Shown here: positions 33,610 through 56,810 of the stretch, piece by piece | Numbering within the stretch: position 1 is the first letter of the stretch | Layout of the letters: the number at the start of each line of letters is the position of its first letter | NCBI GenBank assembly: GCA_013265495.1 | Contig: MU057632.1 | Span: 232,054-296,053 of the forward strand | Source of the DNA: Vicugna vicugna | Lineage: Eukaryota | Direction: 5' to 3' | DNA: 64,000 nucleotides | The notes under the pieces: model-generated | The model's input: only the letters and a program-made list of their open reading frames with translations | The model's database searches: none | Told to the model about the DNA's origin: nothing | Translations under genes and position numbers: made by a program

Positions 33610-34061
33610 TCGATACCTTGTATCAGCCTATAATGACAAAGGGAGAAGGGTATAATGCAGTGGTGGAGCATGTGTTTATCAAGTGCTAGGTCCTAGGTTT
33701 GAGCCCCAGTGCCTCCATATAAATAAATTAAGAAAAAAACCTAATTAGCCCCCCAAAACAACAACAAAACAAGGTCCTACTGTACAGCACAGGGAACTAT
33801 AGTCAATATCTTGTAGTAATCTATAATGAAAATGGATATGAAAAGGAATATACGCATGTACATGCATGACTGAAACATGATGCTGTACACCAGAAATTGA
33901 CACAACATTGTAAACTGACTAGACTTTAATAAAAAAAAGAAAAGGAATATGAAAAGGAATACCTATATGTAAATGTGTAACTGAACCACTATGCTGTCCA
34001 CCAGAAAGTAACACAACTTTGTAAGCCAACTATACTTCTATAAAAAACCATAAAATAAAAT
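33610..34061 (+). mobile_element. Composite: L1 3' tip interrupted by SINE (33641-33768) plus a second L1 3' end (33768-33939)
   Basis: Outer L1 reads gataccttgtatcagcctataatga|...|aaaggaatatgaaaaggaat; outer TSD aaagagggctta (33598-33609) / aaagaggactca (34062-34073). Confidence 0.85.
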
Positions 34062-35761: not shown

Positions 35762-36957
35762 TTGATAACTATCGTCTTTGCATGGTATCTTAAGAAAACA
35801 TAAGCTTAAAAGACCCATTTTTATAGGACTTTGGTGCATCACGGTGCTTCCGGATTACAAAAAGCAAAATGATTAATCTCTGAGGTGCTTTTGAAGAACC
35901 AGGTCCTCATTTCTCCTATATCAACCCACAGCCCTGCCCAAGTAACCCAGCCAACGTAAGATGGATCAAGTCGCCTACAATCTCCATGGTCCTCCTTTTA
36001 TTAAAGGCACCAATTTCCCCCTTGCAGTTATAACAGATTAGAGTGAGCAAGCATTTTGGCAACACTGAGAGCAATTAAAAATGATTTAAAAGGCGAAAGG
36101 GTAAAAATTCCCAGACACGAAACACATCAAAGTAATCTAGCCGTTCAATTATTTTTTATTTAATCAAAGGTCTCAACTTGACTTTTTGTCTTCACTTTAA
36201 AGAAGTGTAAACTGAACAATTCCAAAGGCCTTCAGATGATTTATTCATGTTTGGTAATGAAGTTGATGTGTCCAATTTCAATTTCACAATTACTCAGACT
36301 ACTCATGATAAGAATGGCCCAGGGTCCCTCTCGGAATGATGGTTTTGAGTGATTATGCCAAGGGCTAAAATAAAGGGATGAAAAATCGTGGAACAACTGC
36401 TTGTGAAAACAACCTAAACTGATGTTTAGATCTGCCCTTGTCCCTCCACGCGCTGCCAAATTTCCATGATGCTACCAACTTAACTGCCTTTAAAGACCTC
36501 TGCCAAGAGACGTCTCTTATCTGTAGGAAGAAAACAAAGGGGGACCTTTTCCATGAGCTAAGAAGAAATCTCAAGTTCACAGGATCCAGATATAAGGTGG
36601 CAACAGCTGACAAGACTGAGAAACTGGGAGAGGGCAGATTTTCACACACACAAACACAGCATCCCAGCCCCAGACCCCTTCACGTTCACCACCAAGGTTT
36701 GCCCTTTCTACCAGGCGCTGTCCTCAGCAAGCAGACGTCGGCCACAATTTCACTGCACATGGGAAACCAACCAGGTAAAGCAACTGACTGTGCTGAGTGC
36801 ATCTGGGGGAAGGGCTGCATTCTAGAAAAGCACATTCTGTCACCATGTCTTGCTTTCAACTTACATTCCTGCCACCTCTTCCCCTAGAGGAATATTTTCC
36901 ATCACCAATGAGACAAAAATGCTCACTCTTAAGTTTCTCAGAAGTGAGAGTTTTCTC

Positions 36958-37647
36958 CACATGACTATTTATGAAATAGATAAACAATAAGGACCTACTG
37001 TATAGCACAGGGAACTATATTTGATTTCTTATAATAAGCTATAATGGAAAAGAATCTGAAAAGATATATATGTATGTGTATATATAACTGAACACTTGGC
37101 TGTACATGTGAAGCTAATGTTATAAATCAATTATACTTCAGTAAAAAATTTAAAAAATAAAGTGGATGACATTCACAACAAAGACACTGTAAATGGCTAA
37201 CATATAAAAAATGTTTAATTTTACTGTTAGCCAAAGAAACGTAAAATAAAACCAGATCCCATGTTCACCCAGCCAACTGTTAAGATTGACAGTGATGATG
37301 ATGAAATAAATATTAGTGACCACGTGATAAAACTGGAATATAAATTGTCACAATCTGTCTGAAAGAATTTCAACAGTTTTAACATTTTTTGACTCAGTAG
37401 TTCTATTTCTAGGAATCCATCATGAGAAGATACTGGAGATAGAGTCAGGATGGTCATCACATTATTACTGATCAGACTTAAATACCGGAAGTAATTGTAG
37501 CATATGACAACAAAAGGTTGATACAACAGAGTATATTTATGTTGTAAAATATATTTTTAAAAGCATATATCAAGGAATATTTAACAACATGAGGAAATGC
37601 TTACAATGGAATGTTAAAAATTTAAAAATAATCAAAAGTGAAAAAGA
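36958..37647 (+). mobile_element. Young L1 3' tip (about 36965-37160) plus about 480 bp of ancient L1M-like DNA within one TSD pair
   Basis: Perfect 18-bp direct repeat agaagtgagagttttctc at 36940-36957 and 37648-37665; A-rich tail before the second copy; old L1 motif tttgactcagtagttctatttctaggaat. Confidence 0.85.
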
Positions 37648-37819
37648 AGAAGTGAGAGTTTTCTCAACACACACACAGGTCTTGAAAAATCTTCTGAGAC
37701 TATGACACCTTAACTCCTGGCTCACAAAAGTAGAGCCGCATTAATAATCCTTACTTAAGTGGAGGCACTGGAATGCTGCTTTCATGGTCTCAAATTGTTT
37801 TACTGCAGCATTATTCTTT

Positions 37820-53074: not shown

Positions 53075-53385
53075 TCATCACCATCATCACCAGCATCACC
53101 ATCAACATTACCATCACCATTATTATCCTCACCATTGTCTTGTCATTATCATCATCATCACCATCAGCATCCTTCTCCTCACCATTATCTTTGTCACCAC
53201 TATCATCATCTCGCCATCAGCATCCTCCTGCCCATTATCACTGTCATCATCACTACCAACACCATTATCATCATCACCATCATTATCTTCACCATTGTCT
53301 TATCATTATCATTATCATCACCAACATCAGCATCCTCCTCCTCCCCAGCATATCACTGTCATTATCACCACCATCATCATCATGC
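53075..53385. repeat. Degenerate (CAT/CAC)n trinucleotide low-complexity tract
   Basis: About 310 bp of catcaccatcatcaccattat-type units. Confidence 0.95.
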
Positions 53386-55514: not shown

Positions 55515-56810
55515 TTAAATTTAGGTTTTAAAAAAATCAAAGTGATACATGCATACAAGTGAGAGAGTCACATAGTCTCCTGCTCCCAAACCAACTGCTT
55601 TCCCATCTGATTTAAAAAAATCTAAATAAGATGTCTCTTGGCTGCTTCTTAATTTTTCAGACATTGTCTATTGACTTCCTTTAGGAGGATGGGATGAAGC
55701 TCTTTCTCCTCATTTCCCTGCACCCACACCACACACACACATTATATCCTCACCACACACACATACACACACACACACTGACCATACATACATTCTCACT
55801 ACACACACATACTCACACACCCTCACCCCCTACACCCTCACCACACACTATACTCTCACCACACATACTCACACACCCTCACCACAAACACTCACCACAC
55901 ACTCACACACCATCCCCCCCCACACTATACCCTCACCACACACACATACACACATACACTGACCATACACACACTCGCACTACACACACAACATACTCAC
56001 ACACCCTCACCCCCTACACCCTCACCACACACACACACTCACACACTCTCACACAATTTCACATGCCCAGTAGAGCCGGTACATATTTTGGTAGACTCCC
56101 TGTTCCGTGTTTCTATCAAGACCCCACAGTCCCTTCCTCAGGGAGGAGCTCTGGGGGCCTGTGGGGGCCTTCTCAGGGGGAGCTGGACCCCAGCCCTCAT
56201 GTCTATGGGCCAGGTCGTTGTTCTTAGGTTTATGACAATTTCCCAGAGAAGGCATTTTCAGGGCCTGGGGACTGTAATCCTCCTGGTCACTGTTCTGGGG
56301 TCACAGCGTGTTCCCCTTACCCTCCTTGCCTGTTCTCAGGATGGCCACCCTGGGACCACAGTCTGGATGCTCCTTGTGCCTCCTCTCCAGTTTTCATCAG
56401 GGTGTGGGCGGGTGAACCAGCTGGTTGTGTGGAGTTGGGGGAATCCGGAGTCTACCTGCCTCTAACAAACTTACAAGCAGCCTTTTGTTTTAGTACCTTC
56501 ACTTCCATCCGAGAAGTGCCTGATGTCAGAGTCTGAGCCTTTTGTCTGCAATAGAAATCATGTTGCTTCCTGGCTGTCTCTGCTACTGATTTAGGATTTA
56601 ACTTTTCAGGATTTAACTTTCTCGGTTCTGCTAAGTCAGTTACTACTTGTCCATATGCTTTCCAGCATTTTTTGTGTTCTTTCTTTTATTTCCTGTGTCC
56701 TAGTGAGTTGGGCTCTTTAAAAAACCTCTTTAGACTCATTTTATTGGGACTTCAGAAAGGGATCAGAGGCAAATGCATGCATTCCATCCACCATCCTTAG
56801 CCAGACATCC
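55515..56810 (-). mobile_element. HAL1 (half-L1) remnant: 5' and 3' ends present, most of ORF missing
   Basis: Minus strand 5' end ...aggatggtggatggaatgc...gctggaaagcatatggacaagtagtaactgacttagcagaacc; 3' part aggaagtcaatagacaatgtctgaaaaatt and catgtatcactttgat, as in recalled HAL1 consensus. Confidence 0.7.
55720..56055. repeat. CA-rich compound minisatellite with internal block duplication
   Basis: Block cctcaccacacacacatac...ctgaccatac...ctcacacaccctcacccc(c)tacaccctcaccacacac occurs twice (about 55737-55848 and 55921-56032). Confidence 0.92.

What the first reader, a model, noticed from the sequence alone, without database searches (positions are those of the whole stretch)
36940..37665. 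L1 3' transduction of about 480 bp, bounded by a perfect 18-bp TSD
Seen: agaagtgagagttttctc occurs at 36940-36957 and 37648-37665. It brackets a young L1 3' tip, its A-rich tail, about 480 bp of heavily decayed L1M-like sequence and a second A-rich tail (37616-37647). Established: L1 read-through past its polyA signal mobilises 3' flanking DNA. Inference: the old-looking DNA is not native here but was copied from the donor L1 locus, so it tags the source element.
Basis: partly seen in the sequence, partly recalled or inferred. Interest (0 to 1): 0.7.

Follow-up and report, generated by a model that had tools for sequence, protein, structure and literature searches.

The report
Old L1-copied DNA with distant twin
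A mammalian LINE-1 retrotransposon long ago pasted in a scrap of itself together with about 450 bases copied from elsewhere in the genome; the other copy still exists, but this is a well-known kind of genomic fossil.

Summary
The 18-mer repeat is real (2 copies in the window). It brackets a 5'-truncated L1 3' end that starts exactly at the repeat, about 455 bp of other DNA (the cargo) and two A-rich tracts. A second locus for the cargo exists: one single-copy contig in 4 of 4 runs matches 37206-37409 without gaps at 84%. Three of its details fail or are unshown. The event is old: the tip branch is about 9% and the cargo half-distance 8-9%, so the twin is not near-identical. 'L1M-like' was not confirmed. 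The twin's contig runs 432 nt upstream with no listed match to the L1 tip, which argues against a source L1 directly upstream. Best reading: an ancient partnered L1 3' transduction whose source L1 was lost or lies further off (0.6). Main rival: cargo inserted later into the tip's A-tail (0.2). No outgroup empty site and no donor flank sequence could be obtained. This is an ordinary class of event.

The parts
36940..36957 (+). 5' copy of the 18-bp direct repeat (candidate target-site duplication). The inferred nick reads TC|AGAA on the top strand, a purine/pyrimidine match to the L1 endonuclease motif TT|AAAA (4 of 6 letters).
   Evidence: motif as given in 10.1101/2025.02.02.635956. 1.9% of window positions fit YY|RRRR and 7.8% match 4 of 6 letters.
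36958..37141 (+). 5'-truncated 3' end of a high-copy L1 family, about 9% diverged on its own branch
   Evidence: 14 other window copies aligned. Summed contig depth here is about 100,000 times single copy in run X1. 10 of 110 sites are private, CI 4-16%. 'L1' rests on sister copies lying beside pieces that match ORF2p and on recall of the family.
37142..37160 (+). first A-rich tract (L1 tail)
   Evidence: 75% A over 37142-37161; the tip plus tail alone has no bracketing repeat longer than 7 nt
37161..37615 (+). cargo: DNA with no other copy in the window and one paralogous locus elsewhere in the genome
   Evidence: no window hit below E 0.089; second-locus contig in 4 of 4 runs
37206..37409 (+). 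block aligned without gaps to the second locus, 32 differences in 204 nt (runs X1, X3, X5; 25 in 166 nt in X2, whose contig ends at 37371)
   Evidence: tables 3 and 8; K2P about 0.18
37553..37579 (+). second short block (25-27 nt), assigned to the same second-locus contig by its identical depth, in 3 of 4 runs
   Evidence: joint 37409 to 37553 table 5
37616..37647 (+). second A-rich tract: a decayed poly(A) tail, a native A-rich priming site, or the 3' copy of an inner duplication of the first tract
   Evidence: 69% A; 15 of 16 nt shared with 37141-37156
37648..37665 (+). 3' copy of the 18-bp direct repeat
   Evidence: bridged by own-locus contigs with 0 differences in 769 nt in runs X1 and X2

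Best explanation
One ancient L1 target-primed reverse transcription event made 36958-37647. An active L1 next to the second locus read through its own poly(A) tract into the downstream DNA. ORF2p nicked the target at TC|AGAA, primed on the A-rich 3' end of that RNA, copied about 490 nt of flank and about 190 nt of L1, and stopped; repair left the 18-bp duplication. The source L1 is probably no longer directly upstream of the second locus: either it was an allele that never fixed, or about 300 nt lie between it and the cargo and are missing from this copy. Shown: the repeat, the tip starting at the repeat, one paralog of the cargo, and matching divergences. Inferred: the RNA intermediate, a single event, the direction of copying and the fate of the source L1. 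The insertion most likely has no function; it is a neutral fossil shared by the animals sampled.
For: Perfect 18-mer far above chance. The tip begins at the first base after the repeat and has no repeat of its own. Exactly one other locus holds the cargo, at single-copy depth (14.4 vs 13.4; 9.95 vs 12; 12.4 vs 13.5; 8.29 vs 8.3), in 4 of 4 runs from 3 studies. That contig runs on for up to 5315 nt downstream and 432 nt upstream, with no listed piece on either flank, so this is not a larger segmental duplication. The ages agree: tip branch 9% (CI 4-16%), cargo half-distance 8-9%. The listed differences are 18 transitions and 7 transversions, as for neutral decay. Tica et al. (PMC4862182, section 14 read) found only one full-length L1 near a source locus in non-human primates, and 23 of 80 source loci with no L1 fragment within 5 kb, so a missing source L1 is usual.
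Against: No piece or joint puts the second-locus contig on the L1 tip, and it ends 432 nt upstream of the matched block in all 4 runs. In simulation, a contig crossing 373 nt of collinear high-copy L1 unbroken had a weighted chance of about 7% (0-52% over 16 settings). No poly(A) signal lies near the second tract. The second tract resembles this tip's own tail more than 13 of 13 other L1 tails and more than 232 of 233 A-rich control windows, which the nested rival predicts. An 18 of 18 repeat is a lucky survival at 16% pairwise divergence (P about 0.05, range 0.014-0.12). Only about 230 of about 455 cargo nt were aligned to the twin. No empty site was seen.
Confidence: 0.6

Rival explanations
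1. Two nested events. The L1 tip inserted first and made the 18-bp duplication. An orphan transduction or retrocopy of RNA from the second locus then inserted into its A-rich tail and duplicated about 15-25 nt of the tail (37141-37164 and 37613-37640).
For: 15 of 16 nt repeat, extendable with two small gaps; score 31 against at most 27 for 13 other L1 tails, and 1 of 233 A-rich windows scored as high. It explains at once why the twin shows no adjacent L1.
Against: The comparison was made after seeing the repeat. The core 13-mer also occurs exactly at 2 other window sites, and one sister L1 has a similar tail. No separate poly(A) lies in front of the inner 3' repeat. It needs the two events to be about equally old and a hit in a 20-bp target.
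Confidence: 0.2
2. One event with a chimeric template. Reverse transcription began on an RNA from the second locus and switched to, or was ligated with, the 3' end of an unrelated L1 RNA.
For: One outer repeat, matched ages, and no L1 seen beside the twin. Template switching and RNA ligation are proposed for L1 chimeras (10.1101/2025.02.02.635956, passages).
Against: In the passages seen, the non-L1 partner lies 5' of the L1; here the L1 is 5'. Read-through is the commoner way to this order (established knowledge).
Confidence: 0.08
3. DNA-level copying: break repair or gene conversion pasted a block holding tip and cargo from another locus, with an 18-bp flanking duplication.
For: Weak 3' tail and no poly(A) signal; the nick site matches only 4 of 6 consensus letters.
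Against: It predicts the tip collinear at the twin, which is disfavoured. The order repeat, truncated L1, A tract, cargo, A tract, repeat is the retrotransposition anatomy (PMC4862182).
Confidence: 0.07
4. The cargo is native here, the 18-mer pair is chance or unrelated, and the twin is a sister repeat copy or was derived from this locus.
For: No outgroup was seen; the direction of copying is not shown directly.
Against: Chance is excluded for the 18-mer. The tip alone has no duplication. A single 84% ungapped twin is not what an ancient high-copy family would give (inference).
Confidence: 0.04

Closest known systems
Germline L1-mediated 3' transductions (partnered), e.g. the primate set of Tica et al. 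2016, PMC4862182
   Same: Duplication-bounded insert of truncated L1, A tract, unique DNA and A tract; a distant source locus for the unique DNA; source L1 often not found at that locus.
   Different: Ancient and shared by all animals laid (about 9% per lineage), not polymorphic; probably non-primate; poly(A) signal and clean tail not visible; the source L1 is not shown.
Orphan transductions and L1-made retrocopies of unique RNA
   Same: Unique DNA with a paralog elsewhere, A-rich 3' end, L1-type duplication.
   Different: An L1 3' end sits at the 5' edge inside the same outer repeat. It would be an orphan only under the nested rival.
L1 chimeric insertions (U6/L1, Alu/L1, mRNA/L1; TiMEstamp, 10.1101/2025.02.02.635956)
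   Same: Two unrelated sequences inside one target-site duplication.
   Different: In the passages seen the L1 is the 3' partner; here it is the 5' partner.

Membership tests
L1 3' transduction | Target-site duplication (4-25 bp) bounding the whole insert | tested here: met
   18 bp exact; length range from PMC4862182
L1 3' transduction | L1 3' end with its A tract 5' of the non-L1 DNA, same strand | tested here: met
L1 3' transduction | Transduced DNA maps to a distant source locus | tested here: met
   one single-copy paralog at 84% in 4 of 4 runs; whether it is the donor or a sibling copy is not shown
L1 3' transduction | Source L1 upstream of the source locus (now or in the past) | tested here: inconclusive
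   No collinear L1 seen and about 7% chance of an unbroken contig if collinear; upstream letters not available; absence is usual
L1 3' transduction | New poly(A) tail and poly(A) signal at the end of the transduced DNA | tested here: inconclusive
   69% A tract, none of 12 hexamers 10-40 nt upstream; the twin's matching end was not aligned
L1 3' transduction | L1 endonuclease motif at the nick | tested here: inconclusive
   TC|AGAA, 4 of 6 letters; 7.8% of window positions do as well
L1 3' transduction | Empty orthologous site with one copy of the repeat | not testable with these tools
   No whole genome held; all 20 holder runs carry at least 80% of the words; left flank without cover
L1M (old mammalian L1) as identity of the cargo | Significant similarity to L1 ORF2 3' end or L1M consensus | tested here: inconclusive
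   Protein-level tests not significant; no DNA repeat library available
Nested insertion into an L1 tail | Inner target-site duplication around the cargo | tested here: inconclusive
   15 of 16 nt A/T-rich repeat; 1 of 233 controls as good
Segmental or tandem duplication | Homology continuing into the flanks | tested here: not met
   No twin piece on the flanks (simulated miss rate 2-54% for 144 nt by seed length); flank-versus-cargo scores at shuffle level

The most novel reading that the evidence does not exclude
The cargo records a 'ghost' source: an L1 allele that was active some tens of millions of years ago at the second locus and never fixed, so today's genomes keep only its daughter and an empty parent site. 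Such fossils would let one count lost active L1 alleles in deep time. The alternative in the same class is an L1-first chimera (L1 3' end fused 5' of a unique RNA copy).
Probability: 0.35. Interest if true: 0.35.

Novelty: new member of a known kind. Interest (0 to 1): 0.2.

Why it matters
As a single locus it matters little: L1 3' transduction is established, and the cargo has no sign of a gene or function. It is a usable presence/absence marker for a clade. It is also one example of an old transduction whose parent locus can still be found while the parent L1 apparently cannot, which bears on how often active L1 alleles fail to fix. That question needs a genome-wide set, not one case. Nine literature searches listed no report on this locus or on camelid transductions; the library lacks most subscription papers, so this does not show absence from print.

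Tried and rejected
No whole genome is held, so the suggested BLAT could not be run. The cargo has no copy in the window. A 21-nt motif shared by both loci gave 0 matches in the metagenome contigs. Earlier scan findings: none near, none by sequence, none by words. Protein tests for L1M identity were not significant. A tandem-duplication model, prompted by a resemblance between 36888-36926 and 37573-37604, was rejected: 211 of 2516 tiles score as high. 'Old tip carried as a passenger in a much younger event' was rejected because cargo and tip divergences match. APOBEC-type G-to-A editing of this copy was considered: the window has A where the twin has G at 10 sites against 1 the other way (p=0.012), but against T/C differences, allowing for composition, p=0.59; there is no outgroup to polarise, so it is not claimed. 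The left flank 36400-36927 had almost no cover in the lay and no empty-site joint appeared; the tool filters records, so this is no evidence either way. The joint 37125 to 37544 (21-nt side, a different contig depth) was treated as a chance AT-rich match. Of 24 listed runs, 4 were laid; the raw-read runs X22-X24 were not. Table 8 is cut (48,180 pieces not shown) and 1 joint was dropped at a masked repeat, so a tip match of the twin could be hidden.

Full report
Observation. The 18-mer lies exactly at 36940-36957 and 37648-37665 and nowhere else in the window at up to 2 mismatches; 0 of 100 shuffles gave two matches. Among 1500 random pairs of windows 700 bp apart the longest shared word was 15 nt. 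For 23 other repeat intervals of the window the best bracketing word was 5-10 nt. For the L1 tip alone it was 7 nt, and for tip plus cargo it was the 18-mer. The window is mammalian non-coding DNA rich in L1 pieces; window fragments match L1 ORF2p in the PDB (E 1e-15). Its SINEs look camelid to me, but that is recalled and no call tested it.

Anatomy. An L1 3' end aligns with 14 other window copies, and the alignment begins at 36958, the first base after the repeat. It is followed by an A-rich tract (37142-37161, 75% A), about 455 bp with no other copy in the window, a second A-rich tract (37616-37647, 69% A) and the second 18-mer. The inferred nick reads TC|AGAA, 4 of 6 letters of the TT|AAAA endonuclease motif; 7.8% of window positions do as well (motif from 10.1101/2025.02.02.635956, passages). 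None of 12 poly(A)-signal hexamers lies 10-40 nt before the second tract.

The tip is not young. It differs from its two closest window sisters by 16.6% and 13.4%, with 10 of 110 sites private to it (CI 4-16%). The cargo's L1M identity is not shown. Its three forward frames found no ORF2p in the PDB. Against a profile from 91 of 150 L1 ORF2 C-terminal fragments (those 110 aa or longer from P0018 on), a frameshift-aware score of 24.1 was reached by 32 of 150 shuffles, while true window L1 pieces scored up to 217; hmmsearch gave one collinear hint at E=0.049. I regard decayed L1M as plausible from recall only.

The second locus. No genome is held, so I used public runs. Of 24 listed runs, 20 hold at least 80% of the words of 35800-37815, under 4 organism labels and 8 studies. 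Four runs, one per label and from 3 studies, were laid at 80% likeness. Own-locus contigs cover 37042-37810 with 0 differences in X1 and X2, and 0-1 differences in pieces in X3 and X5, so the cargo and 3' junction are shared by all four. In every run one further contig at single-copy depth aligns to 37206-37409 without gaps, with 32 differences in 204 nt (25 in 166 nt in X2). In 3 of 4 runs a contig of the same depth aligns again from 37553 for 25-27 nt. Depth over 37216-37359 is exactly own locus plus this one contig. The contig continues up to 5315 nt downstream and 432 nt upstream, with no listed piece on the flanks outside the 18-mers.

Age. Half the cargo distance (8-9%) matches the tip's own branch (9%), so tip and cargo arrived at about the same time. 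At this divergence a perfect 18-mer survives with P about 0.05; that is acceptable for a repeat picked for being perfect among two dozen elements. With the camel rate quoted in PMC8605555 (passages: 2.5e-8 per 5-year generation), 9% is about 18 million years; with slower mammalian rates that I recall, about 40 million. Both depend on the untested clade. If camelid, the event postdates the split from other even-toed ungulates (55-60 million years, PMC3514880, start of abstract in listing), so pig and cow should show the empty site.

Is a source L1 there? Not visibly. No piece or joint puts the twin's contig on the tip, and it ends 432 nt upstream of the matched block in all 4 runs, whereas the window's own contig breaks about 105 nt into the tip. 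If a long L1 lay collinear, the contig would have to cross about 373 nt of a family with about 100,000-fold depth. In a star-tree simulation that had a chance of 0-52% over 16 settings, about 7% when weighted by how well each setting reproduces the window's own break (one search was a first version). The aligner would miss a 190-nt 84% match 0.5-43% of the time, depending on its unknown seed; table 8 is cut and one joint was dropped at a masked repeat. So a directly adjacent source L1 is disfavoured, not excluded. The shared break may mark a repeat, possibly the L1, some 300 nt further up. Tica et al. (PMC4862182; passages and section 14) report that non-human primate source loci showed a full-length L1 in only one case, and no L1 fragment within 5 kb in 23 of 80. 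A lost source allele is thus an ordinary outcome. I did not open that paper's supplements.

Mechanism. Most likely (0.6) a single partnered 3' transduction: read-through RNA, target-primed reverse transcription, 5' truncation 190 nt into the L1, 18-bp duplication, and later loss of or distance from the source L1. The repeat, the boundaries, the twin and the matched ages are shown; the RNA step, the single event, the direction and the source are inferred. The main rival (0.2) is a second insertion into the tip's tail. The two A-rich tracts share 15 of 16 nt, and the second fits this tip's tail better than 13 of 13 other tails and 232 of 233 control windows. That test came after the observation, and the A/T core recurs at 2 other window sites. 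A template-switch or ligation chimera (0.08), DNA-level copying (0.07) and native cargo (0.04) are less likely. A local tandem duplication was rejected.

Comparison and verdict. It works like a germline L1 3' transduction. Three defining features are met, three are inconclusive, and one could not be tested. It is a new member of a known kind. An earlier scan note from the same genome describes another L1-made copy of unique DNA (e1-7856071, unchecked here), which suggests such fossils are common in this genome. Interest 0.2; the boldest open reading, a fossil record of an unfixed source L1, has probability about 0.35 and would merit about 0.35.

Noticed in passing
33828-34047: A 111-nt head-to-tail doubling (77% match) of an L1 3' end; it may be a second compound L1 insertion or a local duplication.
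   Followed up: no
37237-37378: Lopsided differences to the second locus: window A / twin G at 10 sites against 1 the other way; only 4 of 25 listed sites touch a CpG; not significant against T/C differences after composition.
   Followed up: partly
36916-36954: Most of the left 18-mer forms the 3' arm of a weak DNA hairpin (-4.9 kcal/mol, no shuffle control) at the inferred target site.
   Followed up: no
37666-37677: A short CA run right after the 3' repeat breaks the contigs in 2 of 4 runs, which suggests length variation.
   Followed up: no
36400-36927: The left flank had almost no contig cover in all 4 runs although the runs hold most words of the region; the tool's filter is the likely cause.
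   Followed up: no
53075-53383 and 55721-56055: Long decayed simple-repeat tracts (TCA-type and CA-type) that produce spurious open frames.
   Followed up: no
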